Assembly: GCA_036625385.1 (NCBI GenBank)
Contig: JAZKTU010000001.1
Span: 14,865 to 78,864 of the forward strand
Source: Halovenus sp.
Lineage (GTDB): Archaea > Halobacteriota > Halobacteria > Halobacteriales > Haloarculaceae
Direction: 5' to 3'
Length of the DNA: 64,000 nt
Below, piece after piece: positions 10,996 to 48,653 of the stretch. Positions within the stretch are counted from its first letter, which is position 1. Each line of letters starts with the position of its first letter. Both the position numbers and the translations under genes were made by a program. The notes beneath the pieces were generated by a model, which made no database searches, had not been told where the DNA came from, and worked only from the letters and a program-made list of their open reading frames with translations.

Positions 10996-11074
10996 TACTG
11001 TCGGACGGAACTGTTGATACTTTCACTCGCCCCACGTGGAACGAGCAGAATATCATGACTTCCGTCCGACAGTA
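10996..11074. mobile_element. Family B palindromic mini-element, 79 bp, TA duplication
   Basis: Perfect 15-bp TIR TACTGTCGGACGGAA/TTCCGTCCGACAGTA; exact reverse complement of 47113-47191. Confidence 0.9.
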
Positions 11075-11152
11075 TACTGCCGGCTGTACGTTCGTAAAGA
11101 TATTCGCGACCCCGGGGTGGCGAATTCGTTCACAATGGGACAGCCGGCAGTA
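11075..11152. mobile_element. Family C palindromic mini-element, 78 bp, TTA duplication
   Basis: TIR TACTGCCGGCTGT/ACAGCCGGCAGTA; central palindrome TTCGCGACCCCGGGGTGGCGAA; TTA at 10991-10993 and 11153-11155; similar to 50681-50758. Confidence 0.85.
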
Positions 11153-32424: not shown

Positions 32425-32533
32425 TACGGATTGGTGTGATTTGTTACCGAGACGTTGAAACAGTGTGGCGGTTTCAGACTCCCGGACGCCGATACCTGGG
32501 CGGCACTGCCGAAAAGAGTCACAACAATCCGTA
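32425..32533. mobile_element. Family A element, 109 bp, TGA duplication (left TGA = gfcR stop)
   Basis: TGA|TACGGATTGGTGTGA...TCACAACAATCCGTA|TGA. Confidence 0.9.
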
Positions 32534-43561: not shown

Positions 43562-43721
43562 TACGGACTGTGGCGAGTCATTCTGCCGGCTGTACCATTG
43601 TGAACGGATCCGACACCGGGGGTGTCGAATATCTGTCCGAACGGACAGCTGACAGTATCAGTGCCGTTGCGCCCGCACCCAATCGTGCGGTCGTACCGGT
43701 ACATAGTCGCAACAGTCCGTA
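43562..43721. mobile_element. Family A element (shortened) carrying a nested family C element; right TCA = aglF stop
   Basis: TCG|TACGGACTGTGGCGA...TCGCAACAGTCCGTA|TCA. Confidence 0.8.
43581..43657. mobile_element. Family C element, 77 bp, TCA duplication, nested in A
   Basis: TCA|TTCTGCCGGCTGT...ACAGCTGACAGTA|TCA; central CGACACC-GGG-GGTGTCG. Confidence 0.8.
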
Positions 43722-44575: not shown

Positions 44576-44796
44576 TACGGTCGTGCGTGATTCTTTACCG
44601 CCATGGCGGGACAAAACGGGATTTTCAGGGTCTGATACGGACGGTTGTGATTATTTTCGGCAGGGACGTCCGATATACGGCGCATCAGCCCGCGAAACGT
44701 GTATGTTGTCACAGCAGAGCGGTAAAGAGTCACAACCGTCCGTATGAAACGTGGAAATACGCGATCCGGTCGTGAAAATAATCGCAACAATCCGTA
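44576..44796. mobile_element. Family A outer element (109 bp after removing the insert), TCA duplication
   Basis: TCA|TACGGTCGTGCGTGA...TCGCAACAATCCGTA|TCA. Confidence 0.85.
44636..44744. mobile_element. Family A inner element, 109 bp, TGA duplication
   Basis: TGA|TACGGACGGTTGTGA...TCACAACCGTCCGTA|TGA, perfect 15-bp TIR. Confidence 0.9.
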
Positions 44797-44828: not shown

Positions 44829-45179
44829 TCACGAACAGGAGGACGGCAAGCGCAATGCCCGCAACTCGCTGGCGTACGACCGTGCGGGGCCGGTGAACCG
44901 CCCCGTCGTGGCGACGATGCCCCGCTTCGGGCCGTCGTAGTCGTAGGTTGCAACCGCCGAGTAGAGTTTCTGGACAACCGGTCGCCCGACCGAATCGGTG
45001 TGCTTGCACTCCACGACGACGGCGCGACGCTCCTCGCCCACCTGTTCCTCCATCGTGATGTCGCGCCCCACGTCGGCGACGCGCTCCGCTTTCCTGACGT
45101 TCTCGTACCCGAGTTTGCGGAACACGTCCCCCATCACGTCCTCGAACTCGAACCCCGAGAGTTCGTCGAGAACCGTCAT
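44829..45179 (-). pseudogene. Mrr-like restriction endonuclease domain, probably truncated
   Basis: GFEFED, DVGRDI, VVECKH, VGRPVVQKL, TTGRFT (PD-(D/E)xK); ends abruptly next to the repeat nest. Confidence 0.7.
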
Positions 45180-45285
45180 CTCCCGGGAGTGTGCGCGGGC
45201 GACGAGCGACGGACGGAACAGCGAACTATCAGGAGCTACCACCGGAGCACCGCACGACGGCAGGAGTACCTGCCCGGGATCGGTC

Positions 45286-45435
45286 TCACTCCCGTGTAAG
45301 ACCCCGGTTCCGGAGCGCCTCCGTCTCTCCACAGGTGTCGCACTCGCCGGGACGGGTCTCCGCCTCGGTTATCGCCCCACACGCGAGACACTCGTAGGTC
45401 GGCGGGTTGGCCGGATTGTGGTCGATCTCTTTCAT
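45286..45435 (-). CDS. Small rubrerythrin-like/CPxCG zinc-finger protein (49 aa)
   Basis: YECLACG...PGECDTCG...LRNRG. Confidence 0.7.
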   Translation of the reverse strand: MKEIDHNPANPPTYECLACGAITEAETRPGECDTCGETEALRNRGLTRE

Positions 45436-45681: not shown

Positions 45682-46764
45682 CTACTCCCCGCCGTCGGCG
45701 GCGACAGTCCGCTCGGTTGTCGGTGCGAGAGGTTCGTCGAGTCCCATCGCCTCGTCGGTCGTCGTGATGCTCTCGTCCTGTGCTTTCCTGCCCAGTGTAG
45801 CACGGATAGCGTCCACATTCTCAGGGACGACATCGGACTCCTGGTGGATGGCCTGGAACAGGTAGAGGTCGCTTGCTCCGTCGCAGCCGGGGACGCCCTC
45901 GACAGTGATCGACTCGCCCCAGATGCAGTTCTCCCAGATATCCGCCCGCGGCCGGCCGGCGTCCTGTGCGAGTTCCTTGATCGCGCCCGCGCCGTCGAGA
46001 CCGAGCCACTCGGGGATGACGAACGTCCGGGACTCGTCCGCAAGCAGGTCCCGGACGTCCGCTGCCCTGGGTTCGGATTCGAGCGTGACGTTGATACTAT
46101 GCATGTGCATCAACGTCGCGGGGACCTTGAGCCCGAGCGTGTCGATAGAGAGTTCCGGGAAGATCGTCGTGACGTCGGGACCGTGGTGAGAAGGCAGGGA
46201 GATGGGGTTCGGAAGGATGTCGTTGATCGGGCCGCGGCTGCTCTGTGCGGGGTCACCGCCGCGCCTGACGAGCGTCGCGCGGACCTTCTCGACGCCGTAG
46301 GCCTCCTGCAGCGGCGCGACGAGACGGGAGAGGCCAGTCGTGTTACAGGAGACGACCCGGACGAGGTCGGCACCCTCGACGGTGTCGTAGTTGGCACGAG
46401 CGTTGAAACTCGCGTCGACGACGTCGGCGTCTTCCCCACCCTGGAGGATGGCAGGCGTGTCGTGTTCGCGGTACATGTCGGCGTTTTCCGCACCGATGCC
46501 GGACGGACAGGCGTCGACCACGATATCGCTCGCAGCGACCAGATCCTCGACGTCGCCCGCAAGCTGGATGCCGGCCTCCGCGAAGCGTGGCTTTCGCTTC
46601 TCGACAGCGGCGTAGAGGTCGAAACCTTTCTCGACGGCGCTCTGTGCCTCGAAGTTCGGGCGGGTTTTGGCGACGCCGACGACAGCCATATCGGGCTGCT
46701 CTCGGACGGCGTCCGCGACCCGTTTGCCGATGGTTCCGTAGCCGTTGATGCCTACCTGAATCAT
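45682..46764 (-). CDS. gap: Archaeal type II glyceraldehyde-3-phosphate dehydrogenase
   Basis: [38 protein letters not shown]. Confidence 0.93.
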
Positions 46765-46940
46765 TGTCTGAGCGTTCGATACTGGCCGTCAAAGGCGTTG
46801 TGATTGGCTCAGATCGTGTGTGGAGTCCCGACTTGCCGGGCACGACGGTCGGACTGCGGGGCCACACCCCGGCTGGGACCGCTGAAGCGAGATTTTTATG
46901 CTCGAGAACTGAGTTATACCGATAAATCGTCCGGTGACGT

Positions 46941-47087
46941 GTGTACCGTCGACAGTTCCTGGGGCTGGTCGGTGGGACCGGCCTCGTGGCCACGGCGGGT
47001 TGCTCGGACGTCATCGGTGGAGACGGCTCGTCACCCAGTCTCGACCCGACGAGGTGGCCGCCGTCGTTTCGGATCCGCCGCCCCAAC
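46941..47087 (+). pseudogene. 5' remnant of a Tat-exported lipoprotein gene
   Basis: MYRRQFL twin-arginine motif and TAGC lipobox; interrupted by the repeat nest at 47088. Confidence 0.6.
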
Positions 47088-47112
47088 TCATACGGATTGT
47101 TGTGGTTCTTTA

Positions 47113-47191
47113 TACTGTCGGACGGAAGTCATGATATTCTGCTCGTTCCACGTGGGGCGAGTGAAAGTATCAACAGTTCCGTCCGACAGTA
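47113..47191. mobile_element. Family B element, 79 bp, TA duplication
   Basis: Identical (inverted) to 10996-11074. Confidence 0.9.
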
Positions 47192-47223
47192 TACCGCGAC
47201 GTTGAGACAGTGTGGTGGTTTCA

Positions 47224-47332
47224 TAGTGATTATTGCGATTGGTTTCGTGACCACGTCGCGTGAACAGCAGTTGCGCGGTCCGAAACACCCGAACTGTGAC
47301 GGCCCGGCGGTAAAGAGTCGCACTAATCACTA
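47224..47332. mobile_element. Family A variant, 109 bp, TCA duplication
   Basis: TCA|TAGTGATTATTGCGA...TCGCACTAATCACTA|TCA. Confidence 0.85.
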
Positions 47333-47485
47333 TCAGACCGTGATATAGACCCCGGGGTTCGCTGTGCGCACTATGATCCGACCCGCGAGACTGACCGGAC
47401 CGAATGGGTAATGTCGACGCCCACACCCTCTCCCCGCGAGGTCCCGGCAGTAACGCCTTTACACGCGCCGTCCTACCGACGCCAC

Positions 47486-48439
47486 ATGAACAGTTCGCTG
47501 CGCACGCCCGCACAGACTGCCGTCGAGCAGTGCATGGGACTTCGCCCCGGCGAGTCCTGTCTCGTGGTCACCGACGACGAGCGGGAAGCGATCGGGAAAG
47601 CACTCGACAGCGTCGCCCGCGAGACGACCGACGACGTGGCGACGATCCGCTATCCGCCGGGCGACCAGCACGGTGCGGAACCGCCGAGACCCGTCTCGAC
47701 GGCGATGACCGGCGCGGACGTCGTGCTCGCGCCGACGACGAAAAGTCTGAGTCACACCACTGCACGCATCGAGGCCACCGACGCGGGTGCCCGGATGGCG
47801 ACGCTCCCCGGCATCACCGACGATGTCTTTCTGATGGGGCTCGACGCCGACTACGACCGCATCGCCGACGAGTGTCGACGGTTGCTCGGGCAGGTCGGCG
47901 ACGCCGAGGAGATCCGGGTGATGTCACCACAGGGGACCGACATCACGTTCCGTCCCGGCACGCGCGAGTGGCTAGAAGACACCGGTATCAACCACGACCC
48001 CGGCGCGTTCTCGAATCTCCCGGCGGGCGAGGTGTTCGTCAGCCCCGAGACCGGCGACGGCACAGTCGTCGTCGACGGGACGATGATGCCCCACGGAAAG
48101 CTCGACGGCGACGTCGTCGAATTCACCGTCGCGGACGGCGCCGTGACACATATCGCGGACGACGCCGTCCGCGCAGAGGTCGAGGAAGCAGCCGAAACGG
48201 CTGGCGACGGGGCGTACAACCTCGCGGAGTTGGGCATCGGCACGAACGTCGCGGTGACCGATCTTGTCGGGTCGGTGTTGCTCGACGAGAAAGCCGGGGG
48301 AACGGTCCACATCGCGATCGGCGACGACCACGGGATCGGCGGCGACGTGGAGGTACCGATCCACCTCGACGGGATTCTCACGGAACCGACAGTGTACGCC
48401 GACGGCGAGGAAGTGACCCTCCCGAGCGCCGGGGAGTAG
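47486..48439 (+). CDS. Aminopeptidase (M29-like)
   Basis: SLSHT, NLPAGEV, AELGIGTN, DEKAGGTVHIAIG, HLDG. Confidence 0.88.
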   Translation: MNSSLRTPAQTAVEQCMGLRPGESCLVVTDDEREAIGKALDSVARETTDDVATIRYPPGDQHGAEPPRPVSTAMTGADVVLAPTTKSLSHTTARIEATDAGARMATLPGITDDVFLMGLDADYDRIADECRRLLGQVGDAEEIRVMSPQGTDITFRPGTREWLEDTGINHDPGAFSNLPAGEVFVSPETGDGTVVVDGTMMPHGKLDGDVVEFTVADGAVTHIADDAVRAEVEEAAETAGDGAYNLAELGIGTNVAVTDLVGSVLLDEKAGGTVHIAIGDDHGIGGDVEVPIHLDGILTEPTVYADGEEVTLPSAGE

Positions 48440-48465: not shown

Positions 48466-48542
48466 CGCGTCGGGGCTGTCCGTCCGGAGAGAGATCCGAC
48501 ACCCGGGTGTCGAGTGTGTTCACCAGGTTACAGCCGGCAGTC
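48466..48542. mobile_element. Family C element with degenerate left arm
   Basis: GGCTGT...CGACACCCGGGTGTCG...ACAGCCGGCAGTC|TCA, abutting the family A copy. Confidence 0.65.
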
Positions 48543-48545
48543 TCA

Positions 48546-48653
48546 TACGGACTGTTGTGACTCGGTCCTGCCAGGCCGACACAGATCTCGCGAGTCGGGT
48601 TTAAATCGACGGTTCTGTCGGGGCGGTGTCGAAAACAATCACGACAGTCCGTA
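48546..48653. mobile_element. Family A element, 108 bp, TCA duplication (right TCA = stop of the HTH-CBS gene)
   Basis: TCA|TACGGACTGTTGTGA...TCACGACAGTCCGTA|TCA. Confidence 0.9.

What the first reader, a model, noticed from the sequence alone, without database searches (positions are those of the whole stretch)
47088..47340. Three-element nest whose empty sites are visible elsewhere in the window
Seen: an outer family A copy (from 47091) contains a family B element (47113-47191, TA duplicated) and an A-variant (47224-47332, TCA duplicated). Removing both gives TACGGATTGTTGTGGTTCTTTACCGCGACGTTGAGACAGTGTGGTGGTTTCAGAC. This aligns with the uninterrupted copy at 32425 (TACGGATTGGTGTGATTTGTTACCGAGACGTTGAAACAGTGTGGCGGTTTCAGAC), so boundaries and duplication sizes are confirmed internally. 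The nest follows directly on a truncated Tat lipoprotein gene.
Basis: seen in the sequence. Interest (0 to 1): 0.75.

Follow-up and report, generated by a model that had tools for sequence, protein, structure and literature searches.

The report
Nested IS630 mini-transposons in a haloarchaeon
Three short gene-less jumping elements sit one inside another in a broken lipoprotein gene of a salt-loving archaeon; their ends match IS630-family transposons that likely move them, which would also explain similar ~110-base repeats of other salt-loving archaea whose way of moving was called enigmatic.

Summary
The nest is real. A 79-bp element (B, TA duplicated) and a 109-bp element (C, TCA duplicated) sit in the left half of a 109-bp host (A), which interrupts a Tat lipoprotein pseudogene at codon ~51. 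The three belong to 531 complete short elements in this haloarchaeal assembly, nearly all 77-80 or 108-109 bp. Their ends match full-length haloarchaeal IS630 elements (C 23/25, B 17/25), and each family's duplication type fits its best-matching IS630 clade, including two clades that duplicate 3 bp (TNA) instead of TA. They are best read as IS630 MITEs; nesting is ordinary and recurs at one hot spot. A Haloquadratum-type genome (G583) holds three 108-bp families of the same build, which probably are the published 'short mobile repeats' of unknown mobiliser (identity not checked against the paper's table). Two length classes 30 bp apart suggest helical phasing (untested).

The parts
46941..47090 (+). 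5' part (about 50 codons) of a Tat lipoprotein pseudogene; twin-arginine signal and lipobox; 1-bp deletion near 47044
   Evidence: intact relative P0003, 433 aa, 83% identical over 72% of the query; contig of run X5 has one more C behind 47044 and an ATG start
47088..47090 (+). TCA target of the host element A (its second copy is lost with the deletion)
   Evidence: the X5 contig follows the gene to 47090 and goes on with other letters; family A targets are TCA/TGA
47091..47112 (+). host MITE A, positions 1-22 (left inverted repeat; ends in the TA that B hit, inside the conserved inner TTACCG box)
47113..47191 (.). MITE B, 79 bp, near-perfect hairpin, TA ends; 79/79 identical to its family consensus; 32 complete copies in the assembly
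47192..47193 (+). duplicated TA of B
47194..47223 (+). host MITE A, positions 23-52, ending in the TCA hot spot (47221-47223)
47224..47332 (-). MITE C, 109 bp, TA ends, inverted relative to the host; 107/109 to its consensus; 20 complete copies
   Evidence: one end 23/25 identical to an IS630 end
47333..47335 (+). TCA right of C: duplication, and deletion breakpoint
47336..47431 (+). probable decayed 3' remnant of the same lipoprotein gene (from about codon 396); inferred
   Evidence: 13 codons from 47336 fit profile column 398 best, 1 of 600 controls as high; unanchored tests not significant
10996..11074 (.). second, identical copy of B in the window

Best explanation
The stretch holds three non-coding miniature inverted-repeat elements (MITEs), two inside the left half of the third, likely moved in trans by IS630-family (Tc1/mariner-type DDE) transposases, and the host's right half is missing, likely cut away with about 1 kb of the lipoprotein gene at C's right end. 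Shown: boundaries, duplications (TA for B, TCA for C), family sizes, end identity with full-length IS630 elements of other haloarchaea, and agreement of duplication type between each MITE family and its best-matching IS630 clade. Inferred order: A inserted at a TCA at codon ~51; C met the host's central TCA (positions 50-52, a recurrent hot spot); a one-ended or aberrant event at a C end removed host positions 53-109 and gene codons ~51-395; B, the youngest family, inserted at the TA of the host's inner end box. The order of B and C cannot be read from the geometry. Inferred mechanism: cut-and-paste with staggered joining 2 nt (TA) or 3 nt (TNA) apart, about 25-bp ends bound by the transposase.
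For: End identity over 25 nt against 88 distinct IS630 ends: C right end 23/25 (0 of 500 shuffles), C left 17/25 (2 of 500), host left end 17/25 (0 of 500), all to the 1113-1142-bp clade flanked by TCA/TGA/TTA repeats; B 17/25 at both ends (1 and 2 of 500) to TA-duplicating 1067-1070-bp members, 15/25 to their TNA sisters; genomic background mean 11.8. The genome's own IS630 (G000:C176:224-1292; NF033545 and PF13358) has TA ends and the same 3-bp flank on both sides. In a tree of 62 transposases the TNA label needs 2 changes against a shuffled mean of 20.8. Named records of the same kind: ISNpe3 (1055 bp, TA ends plus TA flanks) and a 1122-bp IS630 of Halorubrum ezzemoulense (TCA/TCA). ISY100 is cut-and-paste with a TA duplication, 24-bp ends, and gives mostly one-ended insertions in vitro (PMC2170065, passages). 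8 of 16 nests in 108-109-bp hosts lie at offset 52; half-host-plus-guest units broken at that site recur at C90, C86 and C21 and by eye at C127 and C92. Gene order gap, lipoprotein, then peptidase is shared with G550.
Against: No transposase of the clade that matches A and C was found in this assembly (0 hits at E<=1e-40; best 36% identity), nor a full TA-type partner for B; the assembly is 85% complete in 213 contigs. The match of B and of the A ends is moderate (16-17 of 25; the 32425 copy's right end is reached by 13 of 500 shuffles). No transposition was observed. The 3' remnant of the gene is significant only in the anchored test, whose window lengths were chosen after seeing the alignment (10 codons: 34 of 600; 13: 1; 16: 4; 20: 8); frameshift-aware and DNA tests were not significant (9 of 150; 49 of 300). 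GAC follows the duplication here and at C90 (2 of 4 left-half cases) although only 9 of 169 free TCA targets have it, which favours a clean nest followed by a short-repeat deletion over a direct transposase cut. The tree is the quick one, with long-branch warnings.
Confidence: 0.82

Rival explanations
1. C never inserted cleanly into A. C sat about 1 kb downstream in the lipoprotein gene at a native TCA, and its other end attacked (or recombined with) the host's hot-spot TCA, deleting everything between; the 'nest' of C in A is then a deletion junction.
For: The sequence right of C reads in frame as the gene's own 3' part from its first base, so TCA plus 3 nt can be native. Both flanks are TCA by chance about half of the time. 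One-ended joins are common for ISY100.
Against: Intact nests at exactly this host site exist with both host halves (C168, C50, C100, C101), so clean insertion there is common; GAC after the duplication is what the host would leave.
Confidence: 0.25
2. A-left plus C moved as one composite unit (outer ends from two different MITEs) into a TCA of an already internally deleted gene.
For: The unit 47091-47332 has TCA on both sides; at C86 a guest-plus-host-right unit is flanked by TGA on both sides although the guest's inner flank is TCA.
Against: The X5 contig continues differently after 47090, so the two flanks were not neighbours in the intact gene; an earlier deletion would have to end exactly at the target. 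No second copy of this composite was found.
Confidence: 0.1
3. The elements are moved by another enzyme (IS5/IS427-IS1031-type DDE transposase, which by recollection also makes TA or TNA duplications, or a hairpin-recognising HUH enzyme).
For: TNA duplications are recalled for IS5 subgroups and PIF/Harbinger (memory, no call). B folds as a strong hairpin (z -8.7). The genome has three DDE_Tnp_1 matches, whose ends I did not map.
Against: Ends match IS630 elements at up to 23/25, including the inner box, and the duplication type follows the IS630 clade. HUH elements leave no duplication (established knowledge). Ends of other IS families were not compared.
Confidence: 0.08
4. The missing right half is a misassembly of the metagenome-derived contig at repeat C.
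For: The assembly is fragmented and many contigs end in these repeats (33 of 165 partial copies at contig edges). Supporting contigs reach only 8 nt into C (X1) and 19 nt into A (X3), below the tool's 31-letter rule for bridging, and may come from the same source.
Against: Both flanks fit the same gene and the ancestral gene order; a random misjoin would not do that.
Confidence: 0.06

Closest known systems
ISY100 (ISTcSa) of Synechocystis, IS630/Tc1/mariner family (PMC2170065, abstract and passages)
   Same: About 24-bp ends, HTH plus DDE transposase, TA duplication; the TATATA donor junction reported there implies TA ends inside a TA duplication, as in B (my inference).
   Different: ISY100 duplicates TA (rarely AA/TT); two haloarchaeal clades here duplicate 3 bp (TNA). 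Most haloarchaeal members here have two overlapping ORFs with an A7 run, and the 1122-bp clade has 51-56 residues between the second D and the E.
Bacterial TA-duplicating MITEs: ERIC/RU, RUP, Correia/NEMIS (PMC2759123, passages); Sulfolobus SM1-SM4 (PMC10969869, passages)
   Same: Short, non-coding, inverted repeats, TA termini with TA duplication, hairpin folding, tens to hundreds of copies.
   Different: Archaeal halophile host; most families here duplicate TNA; two sharp length classes. The link of RUP and SM1 to IS630 elements is recalled, not from a call.
Short mobile repeats SMR-A (~110 bp) and SMR-B (HqIRS41, 80 bp) of Haloquadratum walsbyi (PMC3119063, passages and section 24; Table S8 not readable)
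   Same: Same two sizes, prominent inverted repeats, insertion into other mobile elements. G583 (47.6% GC, drawn from the genus of a record titled Haloquadratum sp.) has in 800 kb 20 copies of a 108-bp family with C-type ends, 12 copies of two further 108-bp families mostly inside one palindromic repeat, and one 78-bp element.
   Different: The paper says SMRs make no duplication and resemble no transposon. That fits the two palindrome-targeting families (no duplication at 2 testable sites) but not A, B, C or the C-like family of G583, which duplicate 2 or 3 bp. Which family bears which HqIRS name is untested.
Named haloarchaeal IS630 elements ISNpe3 and ISNamo16 (RefSeq product names)
   Same: IS630 family, TA termini inside a TA duplication.
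   Different: They belong to the 1055-bp type, whose ends match B, A and C less well (13-16 of 25) than the 1067-1070-bp and 1113-1142-bp types do.

Membership tests
MITE (prokaryotic) | short, non-coding, terminal inverted repeats | tested here: met
   79 and 109 bp, 14-15-bp near-perfect inverted repeats; no Rfam match
MITE (prokaryotic) | many dispersed copies with target duplication | tested here: met
   32, 20 and 38 complete copies of B, C and A; duplications as
MITE (prokaryotic) | ends and duplication length shared with an autonomous transposon | tested here: met
   partners are in other genomes, not found in this assembly
MITE (prokaryotic) | mobilisation in trans by that transposase | not testable with these tools
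   needs an in vivo or in vitro assay
IS630 family (the autonomous partners) | HTH domains plus DDE_3 catalytic domain; NF033545 | tested here: met
IS630 family (the autonomous partners) | TA target duplication | tested here: not met
   met by the 1055-bp type and some 1067-1071-bp members and by B; not met by 28 of 62 transposases in two clades, nor by A and C, which have 3-bp TNA repeats
IS630 family (the autonomous partners) | about 34 residues between the second D and the E | tested here: inconclusive
   34 in the genome's own element; 51-56 in the clade matching A and C (pattern count)
Haloquadratum SMR-A | about 110 bp with prominent inverted repeats | tested here: met
   A and C 109 bp; three 108-bp families in G583
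Haloquadratum SMR-A | no target duplication | tested here: not met
   A, C and the C-like family of G583 duplicate 3 bp; two other G583 families show none
Haloquadratum SMR-A | strong preference for PATE/IS605 palindromes | tested here: inconclusive
   not tested for A, B, C; 4 of 20 C-like copies of G583 lie in other repeats, 9 of 12 copies of the two other families lie in one palindromic repeat that I recall as IS605/PATE-type
Haloquadratum SMR-A | sequence identity with HqIRS42, HqIRS43 or HqIRS55 | not testable with these tools
   supplement not readable
IS5 subgroups with TA/TNA targets | ends matching an IS5-type element | not tested
   three DDE_Tnp_1 matches in the genome; ends not mapped

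The most novel reading that the evidence does not exclude
All haloarchaeal ~80-bp and ~108-bp short mobile repeats, the 'enigmatic' Haloquadratum SMRs included, are MITEs of one IS630 radiation that keeps TA termini but has shifted its target stagger between 0, 2 (TA) and 3 (TNA) bases, the 3-base form arising twice; and the two lengths, three helical turns apart and shared by families with unrelated interiors, are the end-to-end distances at which the transposase can pair two ends on such short DNA.
Probability: 0.35. Interest if true: 0.72.

Novelty: new variant of a known kind. Interest (0 to 1): 0.5.

Why it matters
The nest itself is ordinary mobile-DNA clutter in a pseudogene. What it leads to is of more use: (1) IS630 clades that duplicate 3 bp, a departure from the TA rule of the IS630/Tc1/mariner group, with close TA-duplicating sisters, so the residues that set the stagger can be mapped; (2) a named candidate enzyme for the Haloquadratum short mobile repeats, whose mobilisation was left open in 2011 and which were proposed to be a host defence; (3) a sharp, testable length rule for minimal transposons. 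I found none of the three in nine library searches, but ISfinder entries and subscription papers could not be seen and may already record the 3-bp repeats.

Tried and rejected
Rfam scan: no family. Intact lipoprotein gene: not found by DNA search in 27 genomes of the genus, between gap and the peptidase in 25 loci of relatives, or by a motif scan of metagenome contigs (0 hits); found by protein search. No RNA holder was listed: no evidence on expression. Bacterial promoter/terminator scan is not informative for an archaeon. The pattern search had a spacing error and is not used. DNA search with the family A copy found a match in 1 of 200 other genomes of the order (weak): too insensitive to map the families' range. 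A general preference for nesting is weak: 30 of 531 copies are nested (23 with a clean duplication) while 2.7% of TCA/TGA and 3.5% of TA sites lie inside MITEs; the signal is one hot spot. Reading B as a 4-bp TATA duplication is rejected, as empty host sites have a single TA. 213 kb of G563 showed no such element under a scan that demanded a duplication. A review whose PMC id I recalled is not held. Earlier notes of this scan had nothing on this genome or sequence. Of 90 candidate IS630 end calls, 14 were dropped (no transposase inside, or hit far from the end), and 7 more with doubtful ends, 1 short ORF and duplicate proteins were left out of the tree. A collection-wide survey of these repeats by named organism was not done, so their range and their names in Haloquadratum stay open.

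Full report
Setting. The window lies in a 2.98-Mb, 64% GC assembly of 213 contigs, 85% complete. Type II GAPDH, GfcR_Halo and AglF_Halo mark it as a haloarchaeon. The finding sits between gap (45682-46764, minus) and an M29 peptidase gene. No Rfam family matches the window.

The observation. From 47091 the sequence reads: 22 nt of host A ending in TA; B (47113-47191); TA; 30 more nt of A ending in TCA; C (47224-47332); TCA. With B and C taken out, the host matches the copy at 32425 at 48 of 55 nt and its family consensus at 50 of 52 nt. The match then ends: host positions 56-109 and the right inverted repeat are absent.

Families and duplications. A scan for TA-ended inverted repeats with TA or TNA flanks gave 444 pairs, 317 of them 70-115 bp long, peaking at 76-80 and 108-109 bp. 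A scan with no assumption on end letters (40-400 bp, any 2-9-bp duplication) gave the same two peaks and no others: 441 and 225 hits in the two bins (shifted re-reads of one element included) against 10 and 7 in a locally shuffled genome. Iterative excision found 531 complete and 165 partial copies, 1.9% of the assembly. B has 32 complete copies (median identity 100%), 31 with TA on both sides; C has 20 (98.6%); A has 38 (94.5%). Of 497 complete non-B copies, 348 have TNA on both sides, and 313 of these the same triplet (chance 43%). Empty-site tests give 2 bp for B and 3 bp for guests at the host's central TCA. B folds into a near-perfect hairpin (z -8.7); A and C are weaker (z about -2.7).

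Nesting. 30 of 531 copies are nested, only slightly above the share of target sites inside MITEs (2.7-3.5%). But 8 of 16 nests in 108-109-bp hosts lie at offset 52, and B hit host offset 22 a second time at C46. 8 of 106 one-ended partial copies abut a complete guest at their broken end, four of them at the offset-52 site; two more were seen by eye. The window's structure is therefore one case of a recurrent pattern.

The broken gene. The ORF from 46941 has a twin-arginine signal and lipobox and shifts frame near 47044. P0003 (433 aa) is the intact relative; P0004 is named by its source as a Salinibaculum salinum hypothetical protein. A contig of run X5, 27 letters different over 180, has the extra base and leaves the window sequence exactly after 47090, which is the host's empty site. 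G550 has gap, the lipoprotein, one more gene and the peptidase in this order. The 13 codons from 47336 fit column 398 of a three-protein profile better than 599 of 600 random controls; 10, 16 and 20 codons give 34, 4 and 8 of 600. Unanchored protein and DNA tests were not significant. I read this as a probable deletion of about 1.04 kb of gene plus the host's right half, ending at C's right flank. Whether C first inserted cleanly, or joined the hot spot by the deletion itself, cannot be told. Contigs identical to the window cross the left junction (X3, 19 nt into A) and the right one (X1, 8 nt into C), too little for the tool's bridging rule.

The mobiliser. The genome has one complete-looking IS630 (G000:C176:224-1292, 1069 bp, two overlapping ORFs with an A7 run) with TA ends and the same triplet on both flanks, plus broken pieces. 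I mapped ends of IS630 elements from other genomes of the order and kept 76 of 90 calls. Four types appear: 1055 bp (TA ends inside TA flanks; ISNpe3 is one); 1067-1072 bp (TA or TNA flanks); 1113-1142 bp (TNA flanks; also in named records of Halorubrum, Halovenus, Natribaculum and others); and about 1146 bp (TA ends, unrelated flanks). Over 25 nt, C's ends match the 1113-1142-bp type at 23 and 17, the host's left end at 17; B matches TA-flanked 1067-1070-bp members at 17; the 78-bp families match their TNA sisters at 18-20; background 11.8. Each of the larger families falls with a clade of its own duplication type. In a quick tree of 62 transposases the 28 TNA members form two groups, each beside TA-flanked relatives (2 changes; shuffled mean 20.8; long-branch warnings). 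No partner for A, C or B was found in this assembly. By analogy with ISY100 (PMC2170065, passages) the mechanism is cut-and-paste in trans; a 3-nt stagger is inferred from the TNA repeats; one-ended joins, the main in vitro product of ISY100, could give the half-host units.

Comparison with Haloquadratum repeats. PMC3119063 (passages, section 24; supplements not readable) describes SMR-A (about 110 bp, 109 and 128 copies in two strains) and an 80-bp SMR-B, with no duplication, no related transposon and an enigmatic mode of movement. In 800 kb of G583 (47.6% GC; from the genus of a record titled Haloquadratum sp.) I found 20 copies of a 108-bp family with C-type ends; all 12 that passed the strict scan have the same TCA or TGA on both sides, and 3 of the 4 copies inside other repeats favour a 3-bp duplication. 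Two more 108-bp families (5 and 7 copies) have TA ends, lie mostly in one palindromic repeat (9 of 12), and show no duplication at the two sites that could be tested (32/32 and 29/32 without a kept TA, against 23/34 with one); one end of one family matches a 1146-type IS630 end at 19/25 (0 of 500 shuffles), the other family only 16/25 (10-16 of 500). The 32 copies scale to about 126 per 3.15 Mb, near the published SMR-A totals. This makes it likely, not shown, that SMR-A are IS630 MITEs. Note too that, because TA and T-A flanks are self-complementary, an inverted repeat read one base further out absorbs two bases of the duplication, which can hide it.

Length classes. Interiors of the A/C-type 109-bp families are 33-52% alike (z 1-6), so descent explains part of the shared length; but the two G583 palindrome families (z about 0-2 to the others) are also 108 bp, and B, the 78-bp and the 80-bp groups are largely unrelated inside. 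The 30-bp gap is about three helical turns; phasing for end pairing is my inference. Mariner MITEs of 80-120 bp do transpose in vitro (PMC2642840, passages); I found no test of periodicity.

Papers seen: PMC3119063, PMC7002104, PMC2759123, PMC10969869, PMC2642840, PMC2170065, PMC13343696, each as passages around search terms; none as whole text. PMC3119063 itself notes that one mobile element inside another is frequent in halophilic archaea.

Verdict. The 3-bp-duplicating IS630 clades, the probable identity of the SMRs and the two-length rule make it a new variant of a known kind, of moderate interest.

Noticed in passing
window 44589-44790: A second nest in the window: a 109-bp element (44636-44744, identical triplet on both sides) inside another 109-bp family at the same central site.
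   Followed up: partly
window 10996-11152, 43562-43721, 48474-48653: More clusters: B abutting a 78-bp element; a 77-bp element inside an 80-bp one; a 108-bp element next to a partial 76-bp one. About 17 copies in 64 kb.
   Followed up: partly
G000:C184:14041-14149 and at least 25 more: Another 109-bp family with ends starting TCC and a 2-bp TA, TT or AT duplication; one copy sits inside the broken IS630 at G000:C128; its partner was not sought.
   Followed up: partly
positions 50-53 of the 109-bp families: A TCAG-like motif lies at the same offset in most 108-109-bp families, in either end polarity; it is the nesting hot spot; its conservation is unexplained.
   Followed up: partly
IS630 elements L040-L058, L099 (about 1146 bp): TA termini with unrelated flanks; may insert with no duplication, like two 108-bp families of G583; empty sites not tested.
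   Followed up: partly
L072 and relatives (1113-1142 bp): A 17-22-residue insertion between the second D and the E of the catalytic triad, also in TA-flanked L148, so not the cause of the 3-bp duplication by itself.
   Followed up: no
L161 (G550:C7) against window 47336-47486: G550 has one more gene (phosphoesterase-like by its N-terminal motif, recalled) between the lipoprotein and the peptidase; the window lacks it, and a contig of run X2 joins 46807 to 47446, lacking the lipoprotein too.
   Followed up: no
window 44829-45332 (minus): Small Mrr_cat restriction-endonuclease-like ORF next to the second nest.
   Followed up: no
L273 (G583:C1:400001-420000): A CRISPR-like array of repeats with spacers turned up in the repeat scan.
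   Followed up: no
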